NCBI GenBank assembly: GCA_000934665.2
Contig: JYFJ02004222.1
Span: 1 to 33,782 of the forward strand
Origin: Catajapyx aquilonaris
Taxonomy: Eukaryota
Reading direction: 5' to 3'
Length of the DNA stretch: 33,782 nt
The notes under the pieces are model-generated. The model was given only the letters and a program-made list of their open reading frames with translations. It was not told where the DNA came from and did no database searches. The position numbers were made by a program, and so were the translations under genes. Shown one piece after another: positions 330 through 31,751 of the stretch; within the stretch, counting starts at the first letter, position 1, and every line of letters begins with the position of its first letter.

Positions 330-1385
330 GGCATCCCAGACGAAGCGCATAAGGAAGGGTACAGCCAAGGGGAACCATGGCTCTATCAGCCTTACGGGGG
401 GAGAGATATACTCCTCAGTGGGTTGATATCGCACATGTTAGAGAACAAATTAAACAAGAGAGAATAGTACGAGAACAAACTATGAATGGTCTGGAATTAA
501 CCAGGATCTTTTGCCAGAAAAATATAAATATTTTTTCTGATACTCATACAACCATTCCAACCTTATTTTCTGTTTGATGAGAATCATATTCAGAGCATGA
601 GCACTCTAGAGGATAATCCAATCAATTTTGCTGACAAATTGGGAGGTGAGAAAGGCGCCCCTGCGGAGAGAGTGATTTGGCATTATAAAAAGAAGCTATG
701 GTTGAGGAATAAACTGGATGACATTGAACGTGCAAATGCAGCTTGCCAGCCATTGTTTGTGGTAAGTCCACACCCATGTCAATATATTCCAAACCTGCAG
801 GAATTTTCCGCCAAATTTTGGCGACGTAATGCATCCAGATTTCGATTCTATTCTCTTGAATGGTCTTGTGAAATATTCAATGAAATGCTCAAGTGTTGAC
901 ACCGTATGCCCAAAAGGTTGTGCCTTACATAACTGGATTTGTGGTCAGAAGTGTGTGTACAGTAATAAAATGCCAAAAATGCATTGGAGCACTCTTCAAG
1001 ACAGACAATGATGCCACAGTCCGTGGCTCATTTTGTGATGATCATGTAATTCAAAGCCTCAGTGTGTCAGGTAAAGATAGTGACCAATATTCTCTTATTG
1101 TGAATAAAAATCGAGGTGGCCTTGTGTTTCTTTCCCGTGATGCAATATATGTATGTAAGCAAGCTGAACTCTATTTGACGGAAGAGCAGTCACAAAACTT
1201 GGCCAACCAAGTGTGCTTTTCATGGCCGCCGGAGGGGGGCGGAGTTTGTCACTGGCGTTATGCGTTTGCATGGCCAGGGTATCTAAGGTCCCCTCCAGAA
1301 CCTAAAACCTCCTTGGGTTCATGTGGTTCTCCCCTCCGCATCTCAGACGAAGCGCATAAGGAAGGGGACAGCCAAGGGGACTGAC
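330..1385 (+). repeat. Dispersed ~45-bp direct repeat (about 330-375 and 1338-1383)
   Basis: gcatcccagacgaagcgcataaggaagggtacagccaaggggaa versus gcatctcagacgaagcgcataaggaaggggacagccaaggggac. Confidence 0.9.
880..1200 (+). pseudogene. P-element/THAP9-like transposase C-terminal fragment
   Basis: Translation YITGFVVRSV..CQKCIGALF....LIVNKNRGGLVFLSRDAIYVCKQAE matches the YxAGYVxR / CxxC / K-x-RGGLxxPS motifs of P-element transposase C-termini. Truncated on both sides. Confidence 0.75.
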
Positions 1386-1959
1386 CCTCACCCTCACCCA
1401 CCCCCAACGACTGAAGACACCAAGTGACCAAGCTACCATACACATATGTGGTAAATCTACACACTGTGTTCTACGAGCTTCACATGGTTTACCGACTGGC
1501 CTATAATATTGTCGTTTTTTTTGCAGTTAAGCTTCTGTCTTTCGGTGGAGAAATCAGATGGAAAGATTTCTCATACGACACTCCAGCGAAACTGGAAGCC
1601 ACCTGTCACATACTAATACAGATAGTGATACAGTCCAGGATGAGCAATTTCAGCCCCACACCGGCCACACCAGCCAAGCGTAAAGGAGAGAAACACAAAG
1701 ACGATGGAGGGAAAAGGAACTGCAGTGTAACAAAAGCGCTTGTTGACAAAAGGGCACGTGAATACAAGTGGATTGAAGTACTACACTCGGTGTGAGTGAG
1801 AGAAGGAGAGGTGGACTGGAAAGTGGAATTCAGCGCCAATAAACCGTTACATGTGAGTCAAATTAATATCTATTACTGAGCAACCAAGAAGACTCGTGAA
1901 TGTGACAATTCACGTATCAAGATTAAATGCAAGATGAATTTGAGTTCCAGGGTCAAGTT

Positions 1960-2495
1960 ATCAAAGATACCAAAAAAAGGGTAGAAATGCTGTAGAGAAG
2001 GTAAAGTTGTCCTTTGTAGGACAGTTGGTTAACAACCTTGATGAACGTTTTGCAGATGTTGGAAAACTGAAGTTTTTCACGGTGTTACTGCCAAGAAATA
2101 TACCAAGTGTGGACCCCGATACTTTCCTAACATATGGTGACAAAGACATATTAGATATTTACATGATGTTACAGTCACACTTGGAAACTCGAGACACTGG
2201 AAAAAATAGTTTGCTTTTGGAATGGGTATGTTCAAACGGGTATTTAAAAGTCTATGTACCACAGGTATGTCACTGGCAGCAGCTCACAAATTCTTCATGA
2301 CAAATAATTTAATGTGTGAGTACCCTGGTATGTCGGCCATAATTATGTCAATTTGGATTGACAATTCCAGTTCACACTGTTGATTGTGAAAGGGGATTCA
2401 GCCAAATGAACCTGACAAAGACAGATATTCGAAACAAACTTCATGTGAACAATGTAAGCCATCTCATGAATATATCTATCAATGGGCCTGAGAGG
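1960..2495 (+). pseudogene. hAT transposase C-terminal region with dimerisation domain (ZNF862-like)
   Basis: FVGQLVNNLDERF..LKFFTVLLP, then from 2361 TIPVHTVDCERGFSQMNLTKTDIRNKLHVNNVSHLMNISINGPE, the classic hAT dimerisation motif. Frameshifted. Confidence 0.88.
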
Positions 2496-2548
2496 TCACG
2501 GATGTGTCTCACATTTGCAGTATTGTAAGTTATTGAAACCACCTAGTC

Positions 2549-2775
2549 ATGCCGAAGATAAAACAAACGTTTTTATCAAACCGATTGGCTACTCAACCCT
2601 CAATTTTATGGCATTGTTGAGGCGAAAGTGAACACGGAGGCGTTTTGTTCCCTCTGCACGAAGTCCATTCACCTGGCCAACATGGGAGTTCAAGCACTGA
2701 AGAGTCATGTCAAAGAGGGGACGAAGCATCACAAAGCAGTTTCCCTTCGGAAGGCGACAGCTGATATCCGGCTGT
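2549..2775 (+). pseudogene. hAT-type N-terminal BED-like C2H2 zinc finger fragment
   Basis: EAFCSLCTKSIHLANMGVQALKSHVKEGTKH (CxxC...MG..AL.SH....KH) at about 2637-2730. Confidence 0.7.
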
Positions 2776-3766
2776 GAAATGAAAAAAATAAATCAGAACT
2801 CTTTCTATTCCTGGGGCAGGCATTTCTGAGAAATATTTCTGAAGCTACTGTGGTGACAACACCGGTGACAAAGTGTCCACTTCTGATGGTTTGTGCACCT
2901 CAATCGCGGGGAAGACATTTGATATGGAAGAGGTTGACGGTCGTCTTGTATGGCACGCTAAAGATATGGTTGAGAATGGAGCTACTCACATCCTAGTCAG
3001 ATCTTCAGACACAAATGTCTTGGTTCTCTTCATATCGTATTTCCACTTTCTGAAAGCGAGTGGGCTAGAAGAACTTTGGCTGCTGACTGGCACAGGAAGC
3101 AAACGGAGATACGTCGGAGTGCATAAAATTGCAGCTGCTTTGGGCAGTGAGAAATCAGAAGCTGTTCGTGGCTTCCATGCATTTACAGGTTGCGACAGCA
3201 CTTCTTTCTTCACTGGCAAAGGCAAGAAAACGGGTTTCAAAACATGGTCGTCCCATCCTGAGGTAACGCCTGCATTTTTGACACTCTCGAAGCCGGTGCC
3301 TGAGCTACCTGATAGCACAGTGGATCTTCTGGAAAAATTCATTTGTCATCTATATTACCCCCACACAGAATACTCTTTTGTTCATGAAGTACGAAGAGAG
3401 TTATTTGCTACCAAAAACACATTCGTACAGTTTATTCCACCAACATCCTCGGCTCTGAAGAAATATGCCCTACGTGCCACCTACCAAGCAGGCCATTTGT
3501 GAGGCAACGCAATGACGTACGACGTCACTTCTCCTCCATCTTCATCGTCTTGGGGCTGGAAGCTATCCCATGGCATGTGGGTGTCAAAATGGTCTGAGGT
3601 CAGTGAAATATGGGAAGAGCTGTCCAGCCTTGACCATTGTGGATGCAAGAGTGGGTGTGAAACCATGCGCTGTGCATGTCGACGAGTTGGGTTGCCCTGT
3701 ACACTTCAATGCAATGATTGCAGAGGAAGTTGCAAAAATCAAAGGTTAATAGCAATTACTTCGTAA
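2775..3766 (+). pseudogene. Academ (AcademX-like) transposon protein C-terminus: XPG/FEN1-like nuclease plus Cys-rich (CXC-like) finger
   Basis: NKSELFLFL; EEVDGRLVWHA (HEEADT-like); ILVRSSDTNV; FHAFTGCDSTSFFTGKGKK (H3TH); IPPTSSALKKYALRATYQAGHL; WGW; CGCKSGCETMRCACRRVGLPCTLQC..C...C. In-frame stop at about 3500. Confidence 0.75.
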
Positions 3767-5357
3767 ATATCAGGAATACCATACTAACGTCATGATGTCT
3801 CTGTCTGCAGATCATCGTGGCCTATCGAGGATGAACATCTATCGAGGAGGAAGCAACAAGCAAGAACTAAATTACAACAGGCGCATAGCAAGATTGTGCA
3901 TGTTTGTGAATACTTTTTTTTAATGTACTTTGATTTGGTTCATGATATTAAATAATTGTGATTCTAATTGTCATTGTCATTAATTTGCTTATTTATAATT
4001 TTGTTCACATTCATAAAAACCACCCTTTTACAGAATGCTTGTTATGCCTAACCTATACATTTCTAGCAAATGGGAAACACCATCGCTAGCTTGCATAGCA
4101 GTTCCATCAAAGCCACCAATATTGCTCGCATGAAAGTTCCAGTAGAAATGCACACGCACTATACGGAAGACGAGAATTAACGTGCCATGTATACATCAGC
4201 ATCACAAAATCATCCCTGAGCATGTCTCACCGGGTCCTCTGCAGCAACCAAAATTATGAGTAATTACGTAGCAATATTTGCACTGCCTGCTACTAAACAC
4301 TTGCATTCTGACTAATGTGGCACTGCTGGAACATGCAGAAATTACATAGTGCACAGGATGCAACTTGTGGCATGCCGTGAGATTATGTCATGTCCGCCAG
4401 AACAGGCTAGAAATAAAGGAATCGCTCGCCTTCCTGGCCGAGCCCTGCGGCTCCTCCAGTTGTGACCCTCATGAGTAAGATTAAGATATTTGTGCGCATA
4501 TGCAACTCGGCTATTGGATTGCATAAGAACAGCGGGAAATATGTAAACATCCATGTTCAGTGATTTCTGGGTCGATCGATCATCTCACTTCTCCTGCGCT
4601 AACACCAACCTACCCACGCGACACAAAAAGGGGCAGACTCGAGTAACAATTAGAAAGATTTTTTGGGGTCCTTCCTGCGGGTCCAATGATTCAACAGGCA
4701 GCCATAACATGAACGATCGCTGGTGAATATTAGCTAAACCTTCACCGCAATAAATTACTCAGTAAAAAGCCAAATTTTGAGTGAAATATGAACTACTTTG
4801 GTGACCGTATGCTACGAAACTCAAGATTTCTAAAAGCACCTTATTAGTTGAACACTAAATGCTCAACAGGGTATAGTAAGGGTAATCTCAAAAGTTAAAC
4901 AGTAAGAGAAGCTGGTTTTGTTTAAAACGAATACTTACACGTATAACCTATAAGGTTGCCATACTCCATCTTCGGGGGCAGCAAGAATGTAATGAGAACC
5001 GGATCTAAGGCATCCTTCACCCAACCACCCAATGACGATGGCCGATCTCTGATAGTTTGAGAAGGCATGACTCCTGGCCACAGGTGTCAAGAGCGAGACA
5101 TCTGGAAAGACGAGAAAGGCCCCCGTTCGGGAATCCACACCTGAACTGGAGGATAATCTAACTGCAGAACAAAGGAAACAACTGAACTGAAGAGGAGCAG
5201 ATGGAGTCCCACAATACACAATAATTCTGAGAAAAAAAAGACAACGTCACCATTGCTTCCACCATCCCAGAAACATCTCTCATTCAATATTATGCAGGAA
5301 CGGAAACCTATTTCTATTACTTTCGTACTGTACTGCCCCGAACTGCCCCAGTCAGTT

Positions 5358-5790
5358 TGTCGCAGGGATCTTAGCCTACTGTGGGTACCGTAGTCGCTGG
5401 GCCAGGGTATCAGGGTGTCAATCCTTGGGCGCTACTGGGCTTTAACCTCAAGAGAGGTGGAAGGAGACTGTTGTTTGGTTTGCGGCCGCCATATTGGTTG
5501 GCGGTTCGTTGCCGGCAGGGTCTGCTCCTGGATAGCAGTTCGAGAAGTATCGGATTAGCCGAGACCTAGGCGAGGGCGGGGCGTCTCTTTAGGCGCTCCG
5601 AACGAGCTTGAAGGCCACAGGGCCCAACTGTAGATCGATTGCCAGGGCGTGGCCCTGGTCGTCGGCTGCTGTTCGGGTTCCGGGAGGGGAGTGAGCTCTC
5701 GGGGGTCCCGAACACTATTGGGAGTGCCCCCTTGAGCCGACTCAGGCGAACCGAGGTGGCGGCCGCGCCCCTTCAGGGCAGAGGGAAAGA
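5358..5790. mobile_element. GC-rich possible LTR or retroelement UTR remnant
   Basis: Sharp GC-rich block starting TGTCGC. No partner LTR or TSD found. Confidence 0.25.
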
Positions 5791-5924
5791 TTAATGCAAA
5801 AATATACTGTAGTTGCAATATGTTAATTTCTTACATGATTGTGAGTGCCTCGTGAGTGAGACAGCCGACCATGGTGACTGCTCGCTGGATTTTATTCTTG
5901 CCAGCTTGGGCCTAGGTTCTTTGG

Positions 5925-5953
5925 AGGGACTACCTAGTGAAACACCCTGTATA
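5925..5953. mobile_element. Orphan Tc1/mariner right-hand TIR end
   Basis: gaaacaccctg|ta is the reverse complement of TA|CAGGGTGTTTC, the same terminus type seen at 25460 and 28349. Confidence 0.45.
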
Positions 5954-7159
5954 ACCATACGTTTCAAGGGAGTAATGAAAATGACCTTTTAAATACCACA
6001 AACATGACATGAAATTGTATTATTTTCATGGCACTTTCTAATGCAGACAATTGTCTGAAAATGGTTCTTCGAAGCACATATGGAATTAGCAGTGCAGCGA
6101 AAATATGAACATTGTGTTCCAGCTTACAAGTATTTGGAAGATTTAACCCTCATTCGTACGCAGGTTTTCACCTCAAACCGAATGACTACTATACCCCCAT
6201 CCAGACATCAGCGAACAGCCTGTCTTCACATTGGGAAGATCAAGACAAAATTCTGGTGGGAAGTTGTGCAATACACAAGAGTAAGCAGCCAAGTACATCA
6301 TTCCTGTGGTATAATACCAGTGTTTCATTTTATTTTATCAGCTTTTTAAAGTCTTCCTTTTTTTAAAAAAAAAACATTAGTGATCGAAAGCAATGTCATT
6401 CCTGTTGTATTAATAATAATTACCAGGAGAGAACAGGCCCATTTAAGGGTCATGCACACTCCAGCGAACTGTGAAACAAAGAGATCCTTGTTTCACATTG
6501 ACAGATCAGAGAATATTAGAAGCCTCACATCCCCTAAAAACATTGCGAAGTTTTTGCAAGCATGTATTCAGTTAATGCATTGAAATAAAAATAAAACATG
6601 CTAGACCCCTTCATTCCAATAGTGTCAGGAATGCTTACGTATGAAACCAGTCTTGCTGTATCAATATCATAAATATTTTTGGCAAAAACATGTGAGAAAT
6701 TTAATTACATCCTGTCAATCAGCAACACAGCGAAACAGATCGTCTGATGGCGGCTCATGGACGGTTACCGCGTCAGCGGCCGGATAACGAGGCCAATGCT
6801 GCCATCCGGGAGATTGTCGAAAAGGATTGGTCGTACACATCGCGGAATGGGAAGCAACTGCGTTTGCATGGCAGAACGATCCAGAAGCCGTCCAGGAAAT
6901 GGCGAGGTTGGAGGCGGAGTGGGCCAAGCAGAAAGAGATAGAGCAACTGGAGATGTGCGAAGTATGCCGGTATGCGAGGAAATATTCTTCAAAGAGGAGG
7001 GCGCAACAATGTTTCCCTGCGGCCATTAACATTCAGCAAAACCAATTCTACAACACCACTTCATCCCTAACAGATAATCATTCCAGCCAGTATCAAAACC
7101 ACTCCACTGATCATCATGTTGAGTCCACTTCTAACAAAACTTTTGTACGGTTAGTGACA

Positions 7160-7908
7160 CAAAGTAATTCTCCAATGGTAGAAGTCAACATTGGTAAATA
7201 GAACCGCCTTATTCCTAATAGACACGGGAGCAGCTGTGTCAATTGTCACACCCTCTCTTTTCCAACATCATGAAGAAAGTTATGACAATTACATTAATAT
7301 CCGACTGTGCAGCGCTTCAGGTGATGTGATAGAAACTACTGGTGTGCATCAGTTCACCTTACAATTAGGTACCCGTCCAATTCAGCATATTTTTTGGGTA
7401 GCTGACATGGACATTGGTCCAAATTGCGAAAGAATCATTAGTCTTGACATCTTGGACCAATACCACATAAATATTTTTATTGCTGATGGTGCAGTAGAAA
7501 TAGATGGAGAATATGTTCCACTACTAGGAAAGAAAACTCCCAATAATTCAACTGTCCATTGGACAGAAGATCTACCTATACCACCTAGGTGCGAAGCTTT
7601 CATTCAAGCGAGAGTTAACAATGTTCGTGAATCGACAACCAATCTAGTCATAGAACCAGTTGGTAGCAATTATTCGGGGTTGACAATTGCATCAAGCCTC
7701 GTTACAGCTCAAAATGGAAACATCCATATTAAGAGTTTTAAACTCTACAAACTTTCAGATAAGAATTCCTAAAAACACCATTGTAGCCAAAGCAACACCA
7801 CACGTGGCTCATCCTAAAAATTTTCTCACTAAACCCACCTCGGATTGGTCCGGACTAAACAAAGAAAACCTTAGTCTAGACGAGGACAAAGCACTCATAG
7901 ATGTTTGA
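7160..7908 (+). pseudogene. Ty3/Gypsy retropepsin (aspartic protease) and downstream spacer fragment
   Basis: ALFLIDTGAAVSIV catalytic motif, LCSASGDVI flap, IISLDIL, then IPPRCEAFI..LVIEP..LTIASSLV..IRVLNSTN..IPKNTIVA. Frameshifted. Confidence 0.85.
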
Positions 7909-8317
7909 AGATATCATCTTGGGCTAAGAGGATATTAAAACGCTAATATTCACTTTGAAAAACAACATGAGTTAGTGGTAGACATACAGTACCGAGCATG
8001 TGGGCGCCCCTTTCCCGAGCGCAGCCAGCGCAGGAAACCACGAGCGGTACTGTGTCAAATTGCGAGGGGAAACACACCCTGATACCCCCAGAAGGAAACC
8101 CGGAACAAACAAAGAGTGCAAGAAAGCGAGGCCTCAGCTAGGAAACTTGCCAGCACCCAAGATGACTCTGAAAGTAGAGTATGTCAACATTTTCACGCAG
8201 CCAGAACTGAACACTTGAGCAATCTATCTCGATACCCCCCTGTTCCTTTTTTTTTTCTTCTTACCTATTATCTACAGGGCCTACGGCCCACAACGGGGAA
8301 CATAATAATTAAAAAAG

Positions 8318-8394
8318 GTAAGGCATTTGACTCAGTCCCCCACAAGGAGCTATTTGAATGCTTGAAAAAAAATGGTCCTAGGAGGAAATTTTAA
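8318..8394 (+). pseudogene. Non-LTR reverse transcriptase micro-fragment
   Basis: KAFDSVPHKELFECLKKNG matches the LINE RT motif D..KAFDSV.H..L...L...G. Confidence 0.65.
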
Positions 8395-9263
8395 AAAAAT
8401 CTCCTGCAAAGTATTTATGCTAATGCGAGATTGACGAGTGCCAGCTGCGTATGCACAAGAGATACGAGTAAACCAGGGTTGTGAGGCGGTGGTGGCGGCT
8501 TGGGGCGCGCCACTTGCAGGTGGCATGGAGAGGGAGTGGTGGCAGTAGGAGGAAGATACACCTCTTTTCTATAGCGATGACTACATTGAAGCGTTTCCAT
8601 GAAGCCAAGAAGAAGGACCTCCAGGAAAGCATAAACGAGCTCACGGAAAGGATCGGCGCTATTGAAACTCAGGACCAGTGGCCAAGATGAGTTCCACGGT
8701 GAGGGAAGAGGAGAAGGATGACCCGACAGGGAATGAGGCCAGTGTCATCTCAAAGGCTGAAGTTCTTGCGGAGGAGGAAGTCGGGTGGGAAAGTTGAAAG
8801 GTGAGTGTTTTTCTGGCTGTGTATTGGAGGACGAGTAGATAGCAATAAATGTGAGTAAAAGCCCGCAATTGCAGTTCACTTGTGATAAGGTAAGCTGTTT
8901 ACCCGTTGACCTGAAACCACTAAGTTGTAAATGGGTAAGTGTTGAACCCAATGGAGAGGGTATCTTGTACGGTACCCCGCTCCCACAGGGCAGCAATTTC
9001 TTTTTGAAAATCACCCAACACATTTGATAAGATTCTGTATTTCATTGAGACTGAATACTAAATTTGTATGGTGCTTTGGAACTAGAATAATATGGACTCC
9101 CCCATACACATGCACGTCATGTAATACTACAGAACCCTTTATATGGTATCACCTATTGTTTAGCTGCTCCTTCATTAGATGGGATAAAGAGTAGCCTACC
9201 CAGTACCCCCAATATATAAAACATTTGATTGTTAGAGCATTCGACCTCCCCCTCATTGCTAGT

Positions 9264-9504
9264 ATGTATAATTTCTGTAGATATTTTGTAAAAAAAAATT
9301 AGAATTGTGTGATATTGTTTTGGTCGATGAAGTGCCGGAGGGCTGGTCAGATTCCAATTGGTAAAGGGGGTCTCAATTTGGACGGGTAGTAATAGCCAAA
9401 TCTTGGTATATTTGTAATGCTTCTATAATATGTAAAGAGCCCCCCTGAAAAGGCACACAGCCCAACAGGATAACCATAAATTGAAATTGGAAATTGAAAT
9501 TAAT
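9264..9504 (+). mobile_element. 5'-truncated non-LTR retroelement (LINE/SINE 3' end) with TSD
   Basis: Ends in an (ATTGAA)n-like tail. Flanked by the 14-bp direct repeat ccctcattgctagt at 9250-9263 and 9505-9518. Confidence 0.8.
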
Positions 9505-20977: not shown

Positions 20978-21245
20978 AAGTTGAAAAGAAGGCAAACTGC
21001 CTTTCACCACCTGGCAGCAGAAGATAAAAATAAGGCGGAGCAGATCCTGAAAAAGGAATTTATATCAAGTGAGGAGAGTGATGAGGAAGCAGACGAAGGC
21101 GGGAGTAAGAAAAAAATCTTCCTCATAAAGAAATTGTCCTGGTTGCGGACAAAAGCCAGGAACATCTTCAAGAAACTGGACGACAAGTATGAGGAGAAGA
21201 GTTCCACTAAGCGGGGAAGGCAACTGATGGTTATGAATACCTCAA
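20978..21245 (+). pseudogene. C14orf93-like / transposon accessory ORF exon
   Basis: After the acceptor ttatgcttcag: KLKRRQ...ILKKEFISSEESD...IFLIKKLSWLRTKARNIFKKLD (MSSEES..L.W.....F..LD pattern of TE accessory proteins). Confidence 0.5.
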
Positions 21246-21373
21246 CAGTCTATCCACAAAGGATGTGCAGGATTTCCACATTTCTGGACTAATTTCCTTT
21301 ATCCCTGTCCATCGACTACGTCCGGCGAATAAGCTACTGCTACAGGAACCACCGTCACATTCTGATATGGAAA

Positions 21374-21555
21374 ATGAAGGAGCTGGCATTCAGCCCTCTC
21401 TATGCCAATCAGCCACAGATCAAAGGATCCAAGAACCGGGACCTGCTGAAGTTAATCCAATCTTTGCAGGATCAACGTAATGTGGTGTTCCACACACAGC
21501 TGGTGGCGGAGAGTGTCGACAAGGATGAGGTGGAGGACGACGACAATGACTATGA
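21374..21555 (+). pseudogene. Sola-like transposase C-terminal fragment
   Basis: FSPLYANQPQIKGSKNRDLLKLIQSL....VFHTQL plus an acidic tail resembles the L.PLY....I...K..DL..L.......FY..L C-terminus of Sola transposases. Confidence 0.45.
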
Positions 21556-21599
21556 TGCAGAAACATCATGAAGCACTATATGGTCTTGAAATCAATAAC

Positions 21600-22970: not shown

Positions 22971-24169
22971 GCACGCATCAACAGATGTGAAAGAAACAAT
23001 AGATCACTAATCAGACCTTCCTGCCATTACATGGAAAAGGAGGGACACCATATCATATTTGAAATACTTCCAGCAGGTTGACTCCTCTAGTATGCGATCA
23101 ATGCGACGAGTGACACGCGCCTTCAATCGGGGAAGAAGCGATGTCAAATACAATCGAGTCATCCTTGATACGAATAGCAATGTAAGAAAAATCAAGAAGG
23201 ACACAGAGCGAGACAGGGTTGCATGAGCGGATTGAATGTCAATAATGTCATTTCTGTTGACGTGTAAACCTGGTTGCCGTTACCAGTAGTAACACGATTA
23301 TTTCAGTGGACTACGCGACCTGATGCGACTGATGTGAAAGCGTTTTTAAATTTTCTTAAAAACTCATACTACTTTTAAATGAAGCACTATCCTGAGTTTT
23401 GAATGAAATCTGAGTCAGCTGAATCACTGACACAAGTCGGCGCCACAGTGGAGGCGAATGACACAGTGTGAGAGCCATGAGAGGTCCCTAATAATTCTTT
23501 GCAAAGATTGGACTTTGTTATACATAAAGCGTTATACTTATGAAATGCATAACACTTTGAATCTGTGACGCTTATTTAAAGAATATATAACTGTAAAAAG
23601 GTGGGAAAAAATGTGGAAAAGGTATATAACTGCATGCTTGTCTTAGTGACGAACACCCCTTTACAATATTCCCATTAACACAATATATCGCATAAATTGG
23701 TACTGAAGCAACTGGTAAGGATATACTCCGTAAATAGAAAGTAATGTAACGGAAGCGCAACTATAATTTCAGTGCACTCAGGATTCGTCTGACACTCTTA
23801 ATTACAATGTAGATCAAATCCCCAAGTATGGCCTCTTCAGCAGGCTTGAAGAGGGCTAATTCCATGCAGAAGTATACACCAGGATCAGATTTTAAATTAA
23901 ATCATATTTCTATGATATTATGGTATTTTCTGAAAGCTGATATTGTGTACGTGATGCCTACAAGGTGATCTTGAGGAGCTCATAATCATGTAGAGGTCAC
24001 GCGGTTACACTGTCCAAAAATCAGTACAGCAGGTGTCGAAAGTTTGGAAAATAATGCCACGCATTGTAGGGGACTGATTACTCCTCATTGAGGCTATTAT
24101 AGGTCAGTATTTGATATGCAAAAAATGAAACCTATTCGAGCATGCACTAATTTTCAGTTTCTTTTGATA

Positions 24170-24290
24170 GGTGCTGTACAACAAAAGAAGGTTGCTGCAG
24201 AAAATACCAAATCGGACACTGTGGAAGTTGTAAAAAGGTGGTTCTGCTTTGTTAAAGACAGGGATGACCAGCGGCGGCATCCTCACTCAG
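24170..24290 (+). pseudogene. DUF4806-like protein last exon
   Basis: Acceptor ttcttttgatag, then AVQQKK....TKSDTVEVVKRWFCFVKDRDDQR (AV...T..EV...I..W...A.DR.GGR pattern). Confidence 0.6.
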
Positions 24291-24339
24291 CTGGCAAAGA
24301 GGCCCCGAACAAGTCATGTCCATAAGGAGATGCGGTATG

Positions 24340-24670
24340 CCGTTCCTCAACAAGAACGGAACAGCGTCATGTTCAACAAGAAGTGCTCAGATTGTGGAGT
24401 GAAGCTGGGATAATGAGTTGTGCTCCACAACATGTGTCTTCGCAGGTATACATTTGGATCGAAAGGAACAATCAGGGGTCACCCTTTGTGATGATCCAGA
24501 AGTAACTGTACATGTAAGACAGACAGTGGAGGATGACAGAGAACTCAATGAGTCTGCTGGCAACAGTGAATGTCATACTGAAATATCTCCCACGCCTTTG
24601 TCAGTGCATGCTGACTTGTCCAATTGGGCCAAAAATTATAACTTAAGTCTTATTTTGCAACCACACATTC
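24340..24670 (+). pseudogene. CACTA/EnSpm transposase N-terminal fragment
   Basis: Acidic leader, then DLSNWAKNYNLS..ILQPH (L..WA...NI....LL.IL..H motif, internally deleted), directly after the DUF4806-like exon. Confidence 0.55.
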
Positions 24671-25459
24671 ATGAATACTCCAAGGCAACCCAGGCCCCGG
24701 AGTACGGAGGAGTTTGCAGCCAATGTGCATTTCTTCCTGACAACGACTACATCTGGGGATGGAGCTGTAATTTCCTTCATCTTCCAGTCACATGGAACTG
24801 TAGGTGGTCTGCTGCGAGGCGATTTTGAGTTCCATATATTAATGGGACATTCAAGACGATTCCACGGATGTGTTGCCAACTTTTGACCACAGCTCCGTCA
24901 GCCCGTCAGTTAACCTCAAGTTTTCAAAGCAACCTGCCATCGTAGCAACAAGGAATGCCACTTTCTCAATTAATAATGCGTCTACAAAAGCCCCAATCAG
25001 CCAACGGCTGTATAGTCGTACCAAGTCATACCCATCATGTAATCATAACAGTAGGCTGTAGGGCTTTTTTTTATGCAAAATAAAACTGGAATGAGCTACC
25101 CAGTCATTCACTGCAAAAGCAGTTACTATGCCAGCCTGGTGATACAGCATCTATTTGCATGACCCAGAGCGTTATGATTGTTGAATCAAACCGCGTTGCT
25201 GTTGATTTATCAACATGAGAGGTCAACATAAATCCCCCAGTTTGTCCATCTAATGATAATTGGGCACGTCGTGGAGAAAGTGACTGACCAACAACTTCCT
25301 TCATTGCCTCTCCTGCATTCCATGAGTTATACAGCAAGCCTTGAACCAACATACCATCCTACACCAGATTGCCCTGAATCGCGCCAGCAATGGGCGAAAC
25401 ACCGAAATTTCTGGGCAATCATTTATGCCACACATGACATGAAACTGGTTGGGTTTATA

Positions 25460-25910
25460 CAGGGTGTCCCACAAATTACGCTACCCAGAATTACATTAAT
25501 AACTGTAACACAAATGAAGATATTCCAACGGAATTTGAACTCAATCAACCTCAACACGTGAGAAAGGAATTGGAATGGGTCTGGCAAATGTGGGTGCTGT
25601 AATACTGACGCTGGAGCGATGAATCGGCCAGACGACACCTGAGCAGTGGCGCGCGGCGGATGTCCTTGCTTCCTGATCCAAACGATGTGGAACTTTCGAC
25701 TGGATATTTTCAACAGGATGGGGTGACATGCCACACATCACATGTCAGCATGGCCGAAATAAAGTCCTTCTTCGGCGACCGAGTCATTTCAAAGGGACTG
25801 TGGCCACCACTGTCGCCCGATCTTACGCCACCTGATTACTTCTTATGGGGCTTTCTGAAAGGAAGAGTGTACCGCAACAATCCAGGGTCCATCCAGCCCT
25901 TGAAGGACAA
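25460..25910 (+). mobile_element. Tc1/mariner (maT/Tc3-like) internally deleted element: left TIR plus catalytic C-terminal fragment
   Basis: TA|CAGGGTGTCCCACAAA terminus; FQQDGVTCHTS...FGDRVISKGLWPPLSPDLTPPDYFLWGFLKGRVYRNNP. Confidence 0.9.
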
Positions 25911-26060
25911 CATGTGCACATTCGGGACACCATTCGGCAGATACAAATTTAGACGTCTGCCGTATGGTATAAAAACTGCACGAGAAGTGTTTCAGCAGCA
26001 GATGGTACAAATTATTGAGGGTCTTGAAGGGGTAGCAGCATTCATGGATGACCCTGACAT
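25911..26060 (+). pseudogene. Ty3/Gypsy reverse transcriptase fragment
   Basis: CTFGTPFGRYKFRRLPYGIKTAREVFQQQMVQIIEGLEGVAAFMDD (LPxG and YxDD-like motifs). Confidence 0.92.
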
Positions 26061-26419
26061 TGTTGAGTGAGTTTTCACAACTTAGCAAAGTTTCTAGAAA
26101 GTGACATTTCTGCACCCATCAGAACCTTCTGACCCCTTCACCACCTGATGTCCTCTGAATCCCTTCTACCGATATACTTTACATAGTGAATCCCTATCGG
26201 CCAACTGGTTGGGTTTATACTTTACCAGAAGGTGAAAGAAGGTTGCAGATGTCACTAAAAACTTCCTGGATCAAATAAAAAAACAATGGCCTTGAGTTCA
26301 CAGCCACCATACCTAACATATGGGGAAAAAAGTATGAAGAGACTCTTAAAACGAGACATTGCACAGGTTTCTATCTCATCTAGTTCCTGAGCAAATAGTC
26401 CTTCACTACTTCAAGATGC

Positions 26420-26593
26420 AGATATTTGGCATGAAATTTTGAATATTTGGATACTTTTGAATTGCAGGCAAAAAAAAAAAAAATCTTCGTGGTTTTCATT
26501 CATAACTAGGTAAGGACACTTGGTACACCAAGTTTCATGAAAAGGAGAGGGGTCAAGGCAGAATCAGTGGGATGATTTCACATGGAATGACTC
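26420..26593. mobile_element. Probable DNA transposon terminal remnant
   Basis: Ends gatttcacatggaatgactc (reverse complement GAGTCATTCCATGTGAAATC) and contains ccaagtttcatgaaa, a TIR-like end. No partner end found. Confidence 0.35.
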
Positions 26594-27747
26594 TTTGATG
26601 ACTGGTGGATGGTCCATTAAGATGCTGCGGGGCAGTTGACGTAGATGCAGATTTTCTGGTGATGGTCTAACTCCGCCTGTCGCATCTAGTCCTGAACGAG
26701 TAGAAGGCGTGGATTAGGCCCCTGGGTCTTCTTCCCAACTGCCACCCTCACGTTGTCCCCGCCAGCACCCCGCAAGGGATCTCTTGATGGTTAGGGGATT
26801 GAAGCCCATCCCACCCTTATTGTCCCAGAGGCCTCCGTATCCATGTTGATCCTCCAAGTCCTTCCACTCAGTCCTCGGATGTCTGGACCCTTTGCAAAGC
26901 TTGCAGACCAAATCCATTGGTTCTATGAAATGTTACCAGGTCCCAGAATCTGTCTTCTTCGTTGTCAGGTGCACTTAGCAAGCACTGAGTCTACCAGACT
27001 AGCAGACTGGAATTGCTCATAACTTGGTGCATCCTTGGTGATTGAAGTTGCTGAATGTGGGCAGTACATTGGCACAGAAAAATGCTTGTAGAAGAGAATG
27101 GCAGTGGAACACGGCAGGTTGGCTGCACCAATGGGTAGGTGCGTTCAGGTGAAACTCTAGAAGGCAGCTTGGCCAAAGGATGGAGACTGTTGCCACTTGA
27201 AGTCTCCACATACAAATGTCACTTGCATAACCACCCTGCAGCATCCAGTTTTGTGACGTTTGGGCAATAAGCTTCAAGTATGTTCAGCCAAATCCAGGTA
27301 TCAGTTGCTCTGCTTGCTGTCATACTCGTAGCATCCACTGGGGTTTGGCAGCTCATATCTGCACAACCTGTCAAAGACAAAAAGGACAATATTAAGATTC
27401 GGTGTCATGCAACACACTTACTTTTTTACAAAATATTCTAATCACAATGCAAGTGGCACTTTCCCTCAACATGTGAGCTGTTAATGTCTGGTTGAAACAG
27501 CAGAAGTCTATGTGCAATATTATATTGCCTGTCCATACAATAAAGTAGAAAAAAAGTAGGAGTGGGCATGAAATGGGCACAAAATTTGTGGACTTCATTT
27601 CCTCTTGTACCCCTTGATCCCTTCACTTAAAAACACAAAAGATTTCAGCGTAGTGGCTTAAAATAACATGACAAGTACACAGGTTATCAGCCAAACTCTT
27701 TGTCCATCTCAGTACAGTTTCTTTTCTGCAATAGTGCCTAAGTTATA

Positions 27748-28349
27748 CAGTGTGTAAGAGTCACGGATCAAGCGCGCGCGAGGGGGCTGGGAAAAATCGT
27801 AAGTGGCGACAACCCTGGTCAGTTTTATAAAACAATGAGAAATACGGCAGCAATCAATTTATTTATTTATTACGGCCGTACGTCACGTTCTTTCTGTTCG
27901 AATTGAGCCTGGCGCGCACGGAAAATGCAAGGCAAGAGCGCAGTGGTTTGAAGTTGTTTGACGGGTTTTTAGCCTTGCGGGTTGCACTGAAAAAGACGCT
28001 CTCATGCTACACCGGCAGGGTACTGTACCACATAGTGTACTACTGTACAGTGGTGTGTTCAGTACCCTGCCGGTGTAGCATGAGAGCGCCTTTTTCAGTG
28101 CAACCCGCAACTGCGCAAGGCTAAAAACACGTTCAACCAGGTTCAACCGAATGCATTTGCCACTCGGCGCCAGTCAATTCGAACGGATAAGAACAGCAAG
28201 TAGGATGTGACATCACGCCATACAGCCGTAATAAATAAATTGATTACTCCTGTATTTCTAATTGTTTTATAAAACCGCCTGGGGTTGTCACAACCTACGA
28301 TTTTTCCCCACCCCCTCGCGGGCGCTTGGCCCGTGACGCAAACACCCTG
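27748..28349. mobile_element. Tc1/mariner-type foldback MITE with TA TSD
   Basis: TA|CAGTGTGT...ACACCCTG|TA; imperfect TIRs of about 140 bp, plus an inner near-perfect inverted repeat at about 27965-28128. Confidence 0.88.
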
Positions 28350-28621
28350 TATAGTGCGATACAAAATACTTGTCCAACTGCTTTTTGGACAGTTACTTTT
28401 GCACAATTACTTTAATGGTAACCTATCTGCAATGATATGGGTTAAAGTCCCTTTACCTATGGCTACATAATTTTGACTTATTTGGAACTATGCACATAAA
28501 CAAGATGGCCCTATCAACTTCCACAACTGATGCACTTTCATCATGGTCATCATCTATCAATGCCCAAATATTTGGGGCGCCAGCAAATGACAAGGAAAAA
28601 CAACCTCTAGTTGTTTTCTAA

Positions 28622-28968
28622 AGTGGGCTCTACACAGTCGATCCGACTCCGACATGATTCGACCATCGAACGTGCTGTGTAAATAAATGGCATTCCTTGT
28701 CAGATCCGAAGTCGGAGCCAGGGAGGTGATTGATTGATTGATGGTTTAATGGCGCAACAGCAGCCATGGCTATACTGCGCCAAGCACCCGTGACGTTGTA
28801 GGGGAGGGCAGGCAATACCACCCCAACCCCAACGTTAACTGAACCGAAGGTTTTATTTATTTTTATATATATTTTTATATTTTTTAAAAAGGCCTGCTCA
28901 CGTCACCTAGGTAGGTCGGAGATATGAGAGTGGGCGGGGCAAGACGTCGGATTGACTGTGTGAATCAC
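28622..28968. mobile_element. Degenerate MITE (PIF/Harbinger-like) interrupted by a LINE tail
   Basis: acacagtcgatccgac (28632-28647) is the inverse of gtcggattgactgtgt (28946-28961) with one mismatch. Confidence 0.5.
28727..28890 (-). mobile_element. Non-LTR retrotransposon 3' end (I/Nimb/R1-like)
   Basis: Minus strand reads tggcgcagtatagccatggctgctgttgcgccattaaaccatcaatcaatcaatc: a terminal hairpin plus (TCAA)n tail. The 5' boundary is uncertain. Confidence 0.7.
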
Positions 28969-28985
28969 TGTTCGACTCATCCCTG

Positions 28986-29137
28986 CTCTCCGATTGGCTA
29001 GTGGGGTCTTCTAGTCAAACTTGTTGCCGACTCGAAGGCATCGGACACCCTGTTCAGACAGAGGTCTGTTGTTCAATGTCTGATGTTCCGAGTCGGCAAC
29101 AAGTTTGACTGGAAGACCCCTCTAGCCAATCAGAGAG
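28986..29137. repeat. Foldback inverted repeat (arms about 60 bp)
   Basis: ctctccgattggctagtggggtcttctagtcaaacttgttgccgactcg... pairs with ...cgagtcggcaacaagtttgactggaagacccctctagccaatcagagag. Confidence 0.88.
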
Positions 29138-29152
29138 CCGGGAGAACTAATA

Positions 29153-29481
29153 TAGGGATGTGCAATTAGTTTTTGGTTCCGTTGCGTAGTTAATATTTAC
29201 TGCGTAGTTAATGCTTACGGCGGAGTCAAAGTTTCGTAACATCACTCCTCTGCTTCTATGAAGCAAAAGTCAGTTCGAGGGCCTCCGGTCCATTGCCTTG
29301 GTTCCCTAACACATTGCCCATGTGCAAAATTCGATCAAATCCCTTCAGAGTAAGAATCCGGGTACGACACCCATGCACTTTGTCGCTTTTGCCTCATAAT
29401 CCACCATCCAGCCCTCTACACTTTAAGGGCGCTGTACGCATTAACTACGCAATGGAGCCAAAAACTAATTGCACATCCCTA
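29153..29481. mobile_element. hAT-type MITE
   Basis: TIRs of about 41 bp: TAGGGATGTGCAATTAGTTTTTGGTTCCGTTGCGTAGTTAAT / ATTAACTACGCAATGGAGCCAAAAACTAATTGCACATCCCTA. No 8-bp TSD seen. Confidence 0.8.
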
Positions 29482-29629
29482 AAGTGTGGAAAACGAAACG
29501 ACGATCTGATGTCATCTTCACCCAACAATATGAGTAAACAGTGTCAACAAAAAAAAAACGTTGCTTACTCCTATTGTTGCATCAGAACAAAATGATGACG
29601 TCAAGTCATCGTTTCGTTTTTCAGCACTG
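29482..29629. mobile_element. Short Tc1-like foldback MITE
   Basis: agtgtggaaaacgaaacgacgatctgatgtcatc is inverse to gatgacgtcaagtcatcgtttcgtttttcagcactg|ta; an inner stem is also present. Confidence 0.65.
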
Positions 29630-31143
29630 TATATGAGTTTCGCGAGTACCATCAGTCTCCCTGGCATTTGTCTGCGAGTTTCCCTTCACCACCATGTATG
29701 TGCACATATGCAATTCAAATTGGCAATTTAAAATTAATGGGTAGGCCTAATTTAAAATTAAGCAACAAGATTGTTTATTTGAAAAACCCATCCAAAATGA
29801 AAAAAATCTGCACAAGTGCACATTGCAGGATTGATGCACCAATAATATCCACAGAAAATTATCAAATGCAAAGCTTGTTGCTGTTGTGGAAAAACCACCA
29901 CTTCATGCATACTCGTACTGCACAACAATGACAATGATGTGCCCACTGTCATACTGTTATAGTACTTTATCAGAGCTTAGCTAAAATTACTGTGTATTCT
30001 ACTGAAATGTCTATATGGGTTAGCAGGATTTTGGCTGAGTCGCTAACTCTGAAGGAGACACTCTTAGATATTCGGCATTATGAACTAATATCATAATAGA
30101 ATGGATGAAGCATGTCGAGGACCATGAATTATAATGCAATGAGTTGAAGGAATGGACATAATTAGTAGTCTGACCACTTATCATCCAATGTCAGGGTTTC
30201 AATTCATTCTCTCAGCATGGACAAATAAAAAGTTGAACATTATGCAGCAATTCAGAGAATTAGCAGCTAATATCTCCATCTGAAAGTCGCTGCTATAATA
30301 GTTAAATGTTTGCAGTAAGCCAAGTTGCCAATCACCAGACGCCTCATTTGGAATGCACTGCATAATAGCAACATGAATACCACCAAAGTTAAAAAATGGT
30401 CACAAAAGTGCTTGTGACCAAGAGCAGGGTCAAAACATTATCCAGACGCAATGAACAAATGGGCCAATGTGAACCAGAATGTGCTCACAATGAAGGGCTT
30501 GCCATAACAAGTGGTTGGAATGGTAGCAGGGGAAACATTATCAATTCAGCACTTGACCTCTGGTGCCACATCCTCCATTAAAGACATTGATATGGTGAAA
30601 TGCACGGACAGGGATTGACACTTGTTGTTCATCACTTATCAATCACGTTACACTTCTGCGGCAATCAAATCATAATAATTAATCACACTAATTTTTTGAA
30701 TGAAAATTATACTATTAGAAACAGGGCTAATAATAATAATAATAATGAAATCCTGCCCTATTACAATCTTTTGTAGCAAATGATGCAAAGTAGTGTAAAT
30801 GAAAAACATGGGAATCCAACATTTTAGCAAAAAGTGACACTCATATGATCAGCAAGGCTTAAAATACTTGAAGTTACAATAAATTGCAAATTGCTAAGGG
30901 CTGCAGGTGGTTAGCTAAATGTGCAGGATTCTCATCTTAATTTTTATATCAACGGGAGGTGAATCAAGATATTTCCAAGTGCATGATCTCTGATCACGAC
31001 ACTTAATGAAATGGAGAACAGATTGACTGCAATATTATGCAAATTTCACAACAAATATTCAGAATTTGGCAAGGCTTGTCCAAAGTGCAACTTTTCACAT
31101 AAACATTCACCTTGTTGGACTGCTGAAATGGTTAATGTCTCGG

Positions 31144-31229
31144 TAATTGAAGGGCTCGGGAGTAAACAATGGTAAGGGATATGTAAAACCCATACCCTTA
31201 CCATTGTTTACTCCCGAGCCCTTCAATTA
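31144..31229. repeat. Perfect 35-bp-arm hairpin (possible Merlin-type TIR-only mini element)
   Basis: taattgaagggctcgggagtaaacaatggtaaggg (31144-31178) is the exact inverse of 31195-31229. Confidence 0.92.
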
Positions 31230-31521
31230 TCTAGTTTAGGTGGGCGCGATGTACAGCGTTCGCGGTGGTACTTACTGTTCAACTGACGTAAGTGCATAGG
31301 GACCTAGTGCTGTCTTTCCCGAGTGGCAGAAAAGCAATTTGAGCGCAAACAACCATGTAGAACAGAAGTTACAGACATTTTAACATGACGCATACAGATT
31401 TCATTGCTCCTCGCGGCGGCCATTGATTTATACCAATGGTTGCACCTGTCGATACTCGATACCATCTCCGTGACATTTCGAAATGGAGGGATTTCAAGTG
31501 CAACAGTGCGTAGCACACATC

Positions 31522-31686
31522 ACCATCACGAGTGACTTTTGAAGGGGGTATGACTGTCTGATAAGTGAAGGGTACAAGCACCTTAAAGTGAACCACTCAG
31601 TCAACTTCGTGGATCCAGACACTGGGGAACATACCCAAAATATAGAGAGAACTTGGAGGGAGGATCATGCTAAGGTACCAAGGTAG
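31522..31686 (+). pseudogene. Merlin/IS1595 (ISXO2-like) DDE transposase fragment
   Basis: TITSDF*RGYDCLISEGYKHLKVNHSVNFVDPDTGEHTQNIERTWR, the canonical Merlin motifs. Not in the ORF track because of an internal stop. Confidence 0.92.
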
Positions 31687-31751
31687 GTCGTTCAGTTTCC
31701 TGTACTGAATAACTGCGTAGGATAATAGCCATACTTTTACCTACTCTCTTA

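What the first reader, a model, noticed from the sequence alone, without database searches (positions are those of the whole stretch)
880..31690. Co-oriented mosaic of fragments from about nine TE superfamilies: candidate uni-strand (flamenco-like) piRNA cluster / TE trap
Seen: all recognisable TE coding fragments read on the + strand. These are P, two hAT, Academ, Gypsy protease, two LINE RT, three CACTA, DUF4806-like, C14orf93-like, Sola-like, mariner, Gypsy RT and Merlin, at least 14 apparently independent pieces. Most are short, lack their own TIR/LTR/TSD and abut one another. Established: random insertion gives mixed orientation, whereas uni-strand piRNA clusters such as Drosophila flamenco accumulate TE fragments antisense to their transcript. 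Inference: this is a minus-strand-transcribed piRNA precursor. It is unusual in being dominated by DNA-transposon coding pieces rather than LTR elements. The one clear minus-strand insert is a non-coding LINE tail at 28.7 kb.
Basis: partly seen in the sequence, partly recalled or inferred. Interest (0 to 1): 0.85.

Follow-up and report, generated by a model that had tools for sequence, protein, structure and literature searches.

The report
One-strand graveyard of transposon gene fragments
This 34-kb stretch of an arthropod-like genome is filled with broken transposon genes that all read on the same DNA strand, the layout expected of a locus that makes transposon-silencing small RNAs, but no RNA data could be reached to show that it does.

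Summary
The core observation holds, and it is not a reading bias. Long open frames (100 aa or more) number 26 on + against 7.6 expected from shuffles. On - they number 12 against 10.2 expected.

Eight coding pieces have tool support as transposon-type, and all eight are on +. They are P/THAP9, hAT, the C-terminal end of a ~1500-aa repeat protein, a retropepsin, a DUF4218-type piece, Tc1/mariner, Ty3 RT and IS1595/Merlin. None was found on -. The longest - frame (221 aa) has no relative among 1.84 billion proteins.

Only 8 of the 14 or more named pieces could be verified. The names Academ, Sola, DUF4806 and C14orf93 and the two LINE RT pieces were not confirmed.

The piRNA reading could not be tested: no RNA run was listed and no genome is held. 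A uni-strand piRNA source transcribed from the - strand is my best explanation (0.45). A giant intron or other long transcription unit is the main rival (0.25).

The locus differs from flamenco, because DNA transposons rather than Gypsy elements dominate. The scan has already noted the same layout on eight other pieces of this genome.

Verdict: a new, unproven member of a known kind.

The parts
528..32847 (+). Span over which long + strand open frames (decayed coding remains) occur. It runs to both ends of the contig-sized window.
   Evidence: 26 frames of 100 aa or more on + against 7.6 expected. They are present in each of the seven 5-kb bins.
920..1198 (+). P-element/THAP9-type transposase, C-terminal domain piece
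   Evidence: Pfam THAP9_C, E 0.0017, 18.4 bits (cut-off 24), profile positions 37-127 of 186. No PDB match.
1944..2525 (+). hAT transposase C-terminal part. The dimerisation domain lies at 2358-2474 and the frame ends at a stop at 2526.
   Evidence: Pfam Dimer_Tnp_hAT, E 3.5e-4, 20.7 bits (cut-off 21.4), profile positions 42-80 of 84. Assigning 1944-2297 to the same element is by eye only.
2562..2774 (+). Doubtful.
   Evidence: Pfam zf-C2H2_2 at E 0.056 and zf-C17orf113 at E 0.12. No similarity to the relatives of the next piece.
2778..3742 (+). The 5' part is missing from the window.
   Evidence: 28 relatives, best E 5.8e-83, from thrips, sea anemone, sponge and whelk; tblastn aligns residues ~1166-1540 only, on + only; 3 of 8 relatives show a weak DUF6589 match, so the superfamily is not named.
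7200..7526 (+). Retroviral-type (Gypsy-like) aspartic protease piece
   Evidence: Pfam gag-asp_proteas E 1.6e-4 and Asp_protease_2 E 2.6e-4. PDB retroviral-like aspartic protease 1, E 0.0095.
8083..8391 (+). Frame with an RT-like motif. By eye only; not supported by any tool.
   Evidence: Translation. Pfam none, PDB none.
14004..14423 (+). It is a real multi-copy eukaryote protein family, but the RT identity is not shown.
   Evidence: Atlas first hit 0.96 with 180 shared features, to unnamed eukaryote clusters; one hit at 0.91 to a cluster where 10% of members carry RVT_1. The search for homologous proteins none. PDB none.
17073..17993 (+). It covers residues ~327-618 of 665.
   Evidence: two relatives, E 4.1e-5 and 1.1e-3; tblastn E 7.9e-11, on + only; relative P0030 carries DUF4218, E 1e-4.
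19598..22864 (+). Local direct duplication: 19598-20783 and 21653-22864, 85% identity, about 2.05 kb apart. These copies are not independent.
16899..25206 (+). Further direct repeat pairs: 16899-17023 ~ 23951-24075 (89%); 18303-18584 ~ 24935-25206 (83%); 15686-15869 ~ 19814-20391 and 21850-21910.
   Evidence: all long-range repeat pairs are direct.
25705..25902 (+). Tc1/mariner transposase catalytic-domain piece, truncated on both sides
   Evidence: PDB Sleeping Beauty SB100X, E 0.019, query residues 33-98.
25906..26052 (+). Ty3/Gypsy reverse transcriptase piece. It sits in the same open frame as the mariner piece, 1 residue after it.
   Evidence: PDB Ty3 RT 4ol8, E 0.038, query residues 100-148. 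Pfam RVT_1, E 0.067.
31546..31659 (+). Merlin/IS1595-type transposase piece
   Evidence: Pfam DDE_Tnp_IS1595, E 0.031, profile positions 87-123 of 153.
12574..13236 (-). Longest minus-strand open frame (221 aa), used as a control. No sign of coding.
   Evidence: 0 relatives at E<=0.001 among 1,835,955,588 representatives. No Pfam hit at E<=1.
27744..33379 (.). Six local palindromes (foldback or MITE-like) with no orientation: 27744-28353, 28980-29143, 29153-29481, 31144-31229, 31750-31874, 32892-33379.
   Evidence: Rfam gives only sub-threshold miRNA-like hairpin matches.

Best explanation
The window is a gene-free graveyard of truncated, decayed transposon genes from at least seven unrelated superfamilies, mostly DNA transposons. 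All of them are kept in one orientation.

The most likely reason is that the locus is read as one long transcript from the minus strand. That RNA would be antisense to every archived element, and it would be cut into piRNAs that guide PIWI proteins to transposon mRNAs. This is a uni-strand piRNA source locus. Insertions in the other orientation are lost, either because they give useless sense piRNAs or because their own termination signals cut the precursor short.

Shown: the one-strand layout, the transposon nature of eight pieces, and the absence of host-gene domains.

Inferred: transcription, its strand, piRNA production and selection.
For: - The excess of long frames is on + only (26 against 7.6 expected on +, 12 against 10.2 on -).
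- 8 of 8 tool-supported transposon-type pieces are on +. Binomial two-sided p = 0.0078.
- 0 of 266 minus-strand frames give a transposon-type Pfam match.
- The longest minus frame has no relative.
- In tblastn with the 30 fetched proteins, 35 of 35 matches at E<1e-3 are on +. Noise at E<10 splits evenly, 61 on + against 55 on -.
- All 10 long-range internal repeat pairs are direct.
- No non-transposon domain scores above noise on either strand.
- Uni-strand clusters holding LTR, non-LTR and DNA transposons are described in Tribolium, and antisense-transcribed clusters in Aedes and Bombyx (review PMC9962485, passages read).
- Lead only: unchecked AI notes record the same layout on eight other pieces of this genome.
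Against: - There are no RNA data of any kind, so transcription, its strand and small RNAs are all untested.
- Poly(A) signals are not depleted on either strand. Observed 44 against 38.3 +/- 6.0 expected on +, and 31 against 28.0 +/- 5.3 on -. There is therefore no sequence trace of selection for an uninterrupted minus-strand transcript.
- No promoter or cluster end is visible; the pattern runs off both ends.
- Several identifications are weak and below Pfam cut-offs.
- Eight of eight on one strand is not extreme under a moderate bias: probability 0.03 at 65% and 0.07 at 72%.
- Giant introns are noted elsewhere in this genome (unchecked note).
Confidence: 0.45

Rival explanations
1. The contig lies inside a giant intron or another long ordinary transcription unit on the minus strand. 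Transposon copies in the sense orientation were removed because their splice and termination signals harm the host transcript. No piRNA role is involved.
For: Antisense bias of intronic elements is well known, particularly for LINEs and LTR elements (PMC3088655, passages read). Another note on this genome reports a giant intron of at least 37 kb (unchecked). The sequence evidence fits this reading as well as a piRNA locus.
Against: In the passages read, the intron bias is reported for retroelements, and DNA transposons were left out of that analysis. Here 6 of the 8 supported pieces are DNA-transposon type. No exon-like non-transposon domain appears in 482 frames. A bias of about 65% gives 8 of 8 with probability 0.03. 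Poly(A) signals are not depleted on -.
Confidence: 0.25
2. The layout has a neutral structural origin. Co-orientation comes from insertion mechanics (new elements entering older ones preferentially in the same sense) together with local duplication and deletion. The locus has no function.
For: Nested insertions in human show sense-over-antisense ratios up to about 2.6 (PMC2836564, Table 3 passage read). Part of the window is locally duplicated in direct orientation. The mariner-to-RT junction is internal-to-internal, as a deletion between two co-oriented copies would leave it.
Against: That bias is reported mainly for Alu and L1 and is explained there by their sequence features. It is not known for cut-and-paste elements. 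The eight supported pieces belong to different superfamilies, so duplication cannot explain their shared strand. A bias of 72% gives 8 of 8 with probability 0.07, and the excess of long frames points to more than eight pieces.
Confidence: 0.15
3. Directional, non-transpositional capture. Internal coding pieces of transposon transcripts or broken copies are copied into the locus in one orientation, by template switching or break repair, in the way of an acquired archive.
For: Several pieces are 5'-truncated with an intact 3' coding end. One junction joins two unrelated internal coding pieces 1 residue apart in frame. No terminal repeats were recognised next to the supported pieces.
Against: No poly(A) run follows the intact 3' ends at 2526 or 3766. 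A-runs and T-runs are balanced, 8 against 6 for runs of 8 or more. Only one tight junction is shown. Deletion in an old graveyard explains the same facts. Terminal repeats could not be searched for without family consensus sequences.
Confidence: 0.04
4. Chance, or a reading bias of a tool-less reader who can translate only the given strand.
For: Pfam alone at E<=0.01 supports only 3 pieces.
Against: Strand-symmetric tests still find the asymmetry.
Confidence: 0.02

Closest known systems
flamenco and flam-like uni-strand piRNA clusters of Drosophila (van Lopik et al. 2023, PMC10643416; passages read)
   Same: A long transposon graveyard without genes in which the elements share one orientation. 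In the known clusters, piRNAs come from one strand and are antisense to the elements, and selection is proposed to favour antisense insertions once a promoter exists.
   Different: [quoted passage not shown] Here only 2 of the 8 supported pieces are Ty3/Gypsy-type and 6 are DNA-transposon type. Promoter, expression in follicle cells, piRNAs and synteny are all unknown here. Only 34 kb can be seen.
Uni-strand piRNA clusters of other insects, as summarised in the review PMC9962485 (passages read). These are Tribolium clusters enriched in LTR, non-LTR and DNA transposons; Aedes loci of viral and LTR remains transcribed antisense; and Bombyx clusters of transposon remnants.
   Same: Mixed transposon classes, DNA transposons included, archived in loci read mainly antisense to the elements. 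This is the better functional match.
   Different: Those loci were defined by small-RNA mapping. This one is defined by layout alone, and the organism is an unnamed arthropod-like genome.
Antisense-biased transposon content of introns (Zhang et al. 2011, PMC3088655; passages read)
   Same: Elements inside a transcription unit are kept preferentially in the orientation opposite to the transcript.
   Different: That bias is reported for LINEs and LTR elements and is partial. No flanking exons are visible here, and the bias here is complete over the pieces that could be scored.
Sense-biased nested insertions (Levy et al. 2010, PMC2836564; passages read)
   Same: Co-orientation of an inserted and a targeted element without any small-RNA function.
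   Different: The ratios are about 2 to 2.6 and apply mainly to Alu and L1. This does not explain co-orientation among P, hAT, Tc1/mariner, Merlin and DUF4218-type pieces.

Membership tests
flam-like uni-strand piRNA cluster | Abundant 24-32 nt, 1U-biased piRNAs from one genomic strand, antisense to the elements | not testable with these tools
   No RNA holder was listed, so read laying could not be used.
flam-like uni-strand piRNA cluster | Strong strand bias of transposon orientation across the locus | tested here: met
   8 of 8 supported pieces are on +, and 0 of 266 minus frames are transposon-type. The long-frame excess is on + only.
flam-like uni-strand piRNA cluster | Enrichment for LTR/Gypsy elements, with the bias carried by Gypsy (PMC10643416) | tested here: not met
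   Only the protease (7200-7526) and RT (25906-26052) pieces are Ty3/Gypsy-type. The other six supported pieces are DNA-transposon type.
flam-like uni-strand piRNA cluster | A promoter at one end driving one long precursor; size of tens to hundreds of kb | not testable with these tools
   The pattern runs off both ends of the 33.8-kb window. No genome is held.
generic uni-strand piRNA cluster (as in Tribolium or Aedes; PMC9962485) | Mixed transposon remnants in a common orientation within a gene-poor locus | tested here: met
   At least seven superfamilies on + (see parts). No host-type Pfam domain scores above noise.
generic uni-strand piRNA cluster (as in Tribolium or Aedes; PMC9962485) | Small-RNA density and main-strand fraction above cluster-caller thresholds (proTRAC-type criteria, as used in bioRxiv 10.1101/2025.05.30.656998) | not testable with these tools
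   No small-RNA data.
giant intron of a host gene | Flanking exons of one gene joined by splicing across the region | tested here: inconclusive
   No exon-like domain was found in the window (Pfam surveys). Exons could still lie beyond the contig ends, and there are no RNA data.
gene-capturing element (Helitron or Pack-type) carrying co-oriented captured pieces | The element's own Rep/helicase or transposase and defined termini around the captured pieces | tested here: not met
   No Helitron, PIF1 or Mutator-type family appears among the hits at E<=1 in 482 frames. No long terminal inverted pair spans the region.

The most novel reading that the evidence does not exclude
This contig and the eight look-alike pieces of the same genome would be parts of a system of one-strand archives directed mainly against DNA transposons. 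The archives would acquire internal coding pieces in a fixed orientation by a copying route, not by ordinary insertion followed by selection. That would make it an acquired, directional memory of transposon transcripts. The in-frame mariner-to-Gypsy junction and the 5'-truncated pieces with intact 3' ends are the only hints.
Probability: 0.05. Interest if true: 0.85.

Novelty: new member of a known kind. Interest (0 to 1): 0.35.

Why it matters
If small RNAs confirm it, this would be a sequence-predicted uni-strand piRNA source in a little-studied, crustacean-like arthropod. It would be built mostly from DNA-transposon remains, not from the Gypsy elements that define flamenco. With the eight similar pieces already noted, it would give a ready list of loci for asking how one-strand clusters arise outside Drosophila, and whether orientation selection acts on cut-and-paste elements. 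If the region is instead an intron, it would show an unusually complete orientation filter on DNA transposons. That result would also be worth measuring genome-wide.

Tried and rejected
- **RNA evidence.** The look-up of sequencing runs (kind rna, window:8001-18000) listed no RNA holder.
- **Whole genome.** None is held, so no genome-wide background of orientation could be computed.
- **Six-frame read-through for Pfam.** Six references went through but lowered the one known match (protease E 1.6e-4 to 0.0083) and added nothing, so I dropped this route and scanned stop-to-stop frames instead.
- **The search for homologous proteins on 14004-14423.** No hit.
- **Atlas on 17347-17700.** Best score 0.87, to alcohol-dehydrogenase clusters; I treat this as noise.
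- **PDB searches.** None for 8083-8391, 14004-14423 (one chance-level row, E 0.36), 884-1381, 12996-13379(-) or 19416-19853(-).
- **Poly(A)-signal depletion, as a sign of the transcribed strand.** None on either strand.
- **Retrocopy idea.** No poly(A) run after the intact 3' coding ends.
- **RNA genes.** No tRNA. Rfam gave only sub-threshold miRNA-like matches on palindromes.
- **Zinc-finger frame 2562-2774.** No similarity to the ~1500-aa family next to it.
- **Look-alike search of earlier notes** with the chimeric frame 25609-26067: nothing.
- **Literature.** The two searches did not turn up, among the papers I opened, a description of transposon orientation in crustacean piRNA clusters. 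The Parhyale preprint passages give cluster-calling settings only.
Full report
**Material and limits.** The window is 33,782 bases with no N, about 43% G+C. No whole genome is held for it. The single search for sequencing runs listed no RNA holder. Everything below therefore rests on the sequence, on protein and family searches, and on papers. Earlier AI notes of this scan (unchecked by me) describe the genome as that of an arthropod, 'crustacean-like', with ordinary spliced genes elsewhere.

**Is the strand bias real, or did a tool-less reader simply not read the reverse strand?** I used tests that treat both strands alike.

1. Open frames.
   - From stop to stop, frames of 100 aa or more number 26 on + and 12 on -.
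   - Against 500 dinucleotide-preserving shuffles in 1-kb blocks, + expects 7.6 +/- 2.6 (z 7.0; 0 of 500 shuffles reach 26). The - strand expects 10.2 +/- 3.0 (z 0.6; 161 of 500 reach 12).
   - At 120 aa or more the counts are 14 against 2.7 on + and 3 against 3.6 on -. At 150 aa or more they are 6 against 0.6 and 1 against 0.9.
   - Shorter frames (60-80 aa) are in moderate excess on both strands (z 4.3-5.2 on +, 2.9-3.4 on -). I read the minus excess as the usual shadow of coding sequence on the opposite strand; this is inference.
   - The long + frames occur in all seven 5-kb bins. The feature therefore fills the whole window (528-32847), not just 880-31690.
2. Pfam on every frame of 40 aa or more (216 on +, 266 on -).
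   - At E<=0.01, 3 + frames match and all three are transposon-type. Three - frames match and none is transposon-type (Cation_ATPase_C, DUF7419, EGF_FBN_1st).
   - At E<=1, 33 of 216 + frames have some match, 5 of them transposon-type. On -, 36 of 266 have some match and 0 are transposon-type. Fisher p = 0.021.
   - Two further + matches are doubtful and were not counted: zf-C17orf113 at E 0.12 and HTH_Tnp_1_2 at E 0.035.
3. Matched longest frames.
   - The longest + frame (2843-3499, 219 aa) found 28 relatives down to E 5.8e-83 with the word-filtered search.
   - The longest - frame (12574-13236, 221 aa) found none at E<=0.001 among 1,835,955,588 representatives with the unfiltered search.
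The noise at E<10 was even: 61 on + (12 inside the two known pieces, 49 outside) and 55 on - (2 and 53).
5. Self-comparison found 10 long-range repeat pairs, all direct. All 6 inverted pairs are local palindromes.

The asymmetry is real.

**What the pieces are.** Eight pieces have tool support, all on +:
- THAP9_C (P-element type), 920-1198, E 0.0017.
- hAT dimerisation domain, 2358-2474, E 3.5e-4.
- 2778-3742, the last ~300 residues of a ~1500-aa protein family found in thrips, sea anemone, sponge and whelk.
- A retropepsin, 7200-7526 (Pfam E 1.6e-4; PDB E 0.0095).
- 17073-17993, a frameshifted piece matching residues ~327-618 of two ~700-aa proteins, one of which carries DUF4218.
- A Tc1/mariner catalytic piece, 25705-25902 (PDB SB100X, E 0.019).
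- A Ty3 RT piece, 25906-26052 (PDB E 0.038; RVT_1 E 0.067).
- An IS1595/Merlin piece, 31546-31659 (E 0.031).

Most of these scores lie below Pfam's curated cut-offs. They are credible because the family names are what one expects next to each other, and because no such name turns up on the other strand.

The link of DUF4218 to CACTA-type elements is my recollection, not a tool result.

The name 'Academ' for 2778-3742 is not confirmed. Of 8 relatives scanned, 3 show only a weak DUF6589 match and 5 show nothing.

The two 'LINE RT' pieces have no tool support:
- 8083-8391: Pfam none, PDB none.
- 14004-14423: no homologue and no PDB match. The Atlas places it at 0.96 with unnamed multi-copy eukaryote clusters, with an RVT_1 lead on 10% of the members of one cluster at 0.91.

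I could recognise RT-like, Merlin-like and other motifs by eye in the translations. That is recall, not a test. Sola, DUF4806-like, C14orf93-like and two of the three 'CACTA' pieces remain unverified.

**Anatomy.**
- The pieces are truncated. The ~1500-aa family is represented only by residues ~1166-1540 and no other part appears anywhere in the window. The DUF4218-type piece lacks the first ~326 residues.
- The mariner and RT pieces are internal stretches that sit 1 residue apart in one uninterrupted 153-aa frame. This is an internal-to-internal junction, which an ordinary insertion cannot make and a deletion between two co-oriented copies can.
- I could show such tight abutment for this junction only. 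The other gaps are 250-750 nt.
- No poly(A) run follows the intact 3' coding ends at 2526 and 3766. These pieces are therefore not processed retrocopies.
- Part of the window is locally duplicated in direct orientation (19598-20783 ~ 21653-22864 at 85% identity, and smaller pairs). Not all frames are independent events.
- The right-hand 6 kb holds six foldback palindromes.
- A exceeds T on + in 31 of 32 sliding windows. The skew is the same inside long + frames (0.070) as outside them (0.064). I cannot say whether this reflects sense-strand composition of decayed elements or a transcription-linked mutation asymmetry.
- The reported minus-strand 'LINE tail' near 28.7 kb is a T/A-rich run at about 28850-28890 with nothing to identify it.

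**How it most likely works.** Complete co-orientation of unrelated elements, cut-and-paste elements included, needs a filter that acts on orientation.

The best-known such filter is a one-strand piRNA source. A long transcript antisense to the archived elements is processed into piRNAs. Sense insertions contribute nothing, or they terminate the precursor (model in PMC10643416, Fig. 8 legend). On that reading the precursor here runs on the minus strand.

I put this at 0.45. That figure rests on my own rough weighing, not on a computation:
- Such loci are a small share of a genome, but they predict near-complete bias.
- Introns and intergenic DNA are far more common but predict 8 of 8 only rarely: 0.03 at a 65% bias and 0.07 at 72%.
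- The long-frame excess suggests more than eight pieces.

Against the piRNA reading, poly(A) signals are not depleted on the minus strand (31 observed against 28.0 +/- 5.3 expected). No promoter or cluster end is visible. Nothing shows transcription.

**Rivals.**
- *A giant intron or other long transcription unit on the minus strand (0.25).* It would look the same. The published intron bias concerns LINEs and LTR elements and is partial (PMC3088655).
- *Neutral insertion mechanics plus local duplication (0.15).* This has a precedent in sense-biased nested Alu/L1 insertions with ratios up to about 2.6 (PMC2836564). It does not extend obviously to P, hAT, mariner or Merlin.
- *A directional copying route (0.04).* This is the boldest reading the data do not exclude.
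- *Chance or reading bias (0.02).* Largely ruled out by the strand-symmetric tests above.

**Comparison with what is known.** As a way of working, the locus resembles uni-strand piRNA clusters.

As a member of the flam-like family it fails one defining feature. [quoted passage not shown] Here 2 of the 8 supported pieces are Ty3/Gypsy-type.

The closer functional match is the kind of cluster summarised for Tribolium. Those clusters are uni-stranded and enriched in LTR, non-LTR and DNA transposons, with 70% of transposon-mapped reads antisense. Similar summaries exist for Aedes and Bombyx (review PMC9962485, passages read).

The Parhyale preprint shows that piRNA clusters are being called in a crustacean. 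The passages I read give the calling settings only and say nothing on element orientation.

**Novelty and standing in the scan.** The same layout was already noted and followed up on eight other pieces of this genome: e1-7683629, e1-7595484, e1-7683656, e1-7708285, e1-7506408, e1-7596252, e1-7682800 and e1-7683721. Each ended with the same open question for lack of RNA data. I did not check those notes.

This window adds three things:
- a shuffle-based, strand-symmetric test;
- a matched negative control on the longest minus frame;
- the chimeric mariner/RT frame.

It is a further, unproven candidate of a known kind, and its interest is moderate. What would raise it is a small-RNA or stranded-RNA experiment, or a genome-wide orientation scan. 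That scan would tell whether these pieces are outliers (which favours piRNA sources) or typical of transposon-rich DNA in this species (which favours introns or insertion mechanics).

Noticed in passing
window 25609-26067 (+): One uninterrupted 153-aa frame joins an internal Tc1/mariner transposase piece to an internal Ty3/Gypsy RT piece, with one residue between them. It is a junction without element termini.
   Followed up: partly
window 19598-20783 and 21653-22864: A 1.2-kb segment is repeated in direct orientation about 2.05 kb apart at 85% identity. Smaller related pieces lie at 15686-15869. This is a local duplication inside the graveyard.
   Followed up: partly
window 27744-33379: Six foldback palindromes (MITE-like) are crowded into the right-hand 6 kb. 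The one at 27984-28100 matches the Rfam mir-5985 model at 61.8 bits, below its gathering score of 100.
   Followed up: no
whole window: A exceeds T on the + strand in 31 of 32 sliding windows. The skew is equal inside and outside long + frames, 0.070 against 0.064. The cause is unexplained.
   Followed up: partly
window 2778-3742; proteins P0003-P0029: The best-preserved piece belongs to a ~1500-aa protein family present in thrips, sea anemone, sponge and whelk. It has no Pfam annotation apart from a weak DUF6589 match and a C-terminal Cys-rich (tesmin/TSO1-like CXC, E 0.56) end. It looks like a widespread, poorly named transposon protein.
   Followed up: partly
window 14842-14908: Short GCN-rich tandem repeats read as an alanine-rich run in one + frame (14561-14875).
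   Followed up: no
window 331-373 and 1338-1380; 11734-11819 and 11854-11941; 33397-33470 and 33553-33626: Small direct repeat pairs at 81-95% identity, possibly pieces of short non-autonomous elements. All are in direct orientation.
   Followed up: no
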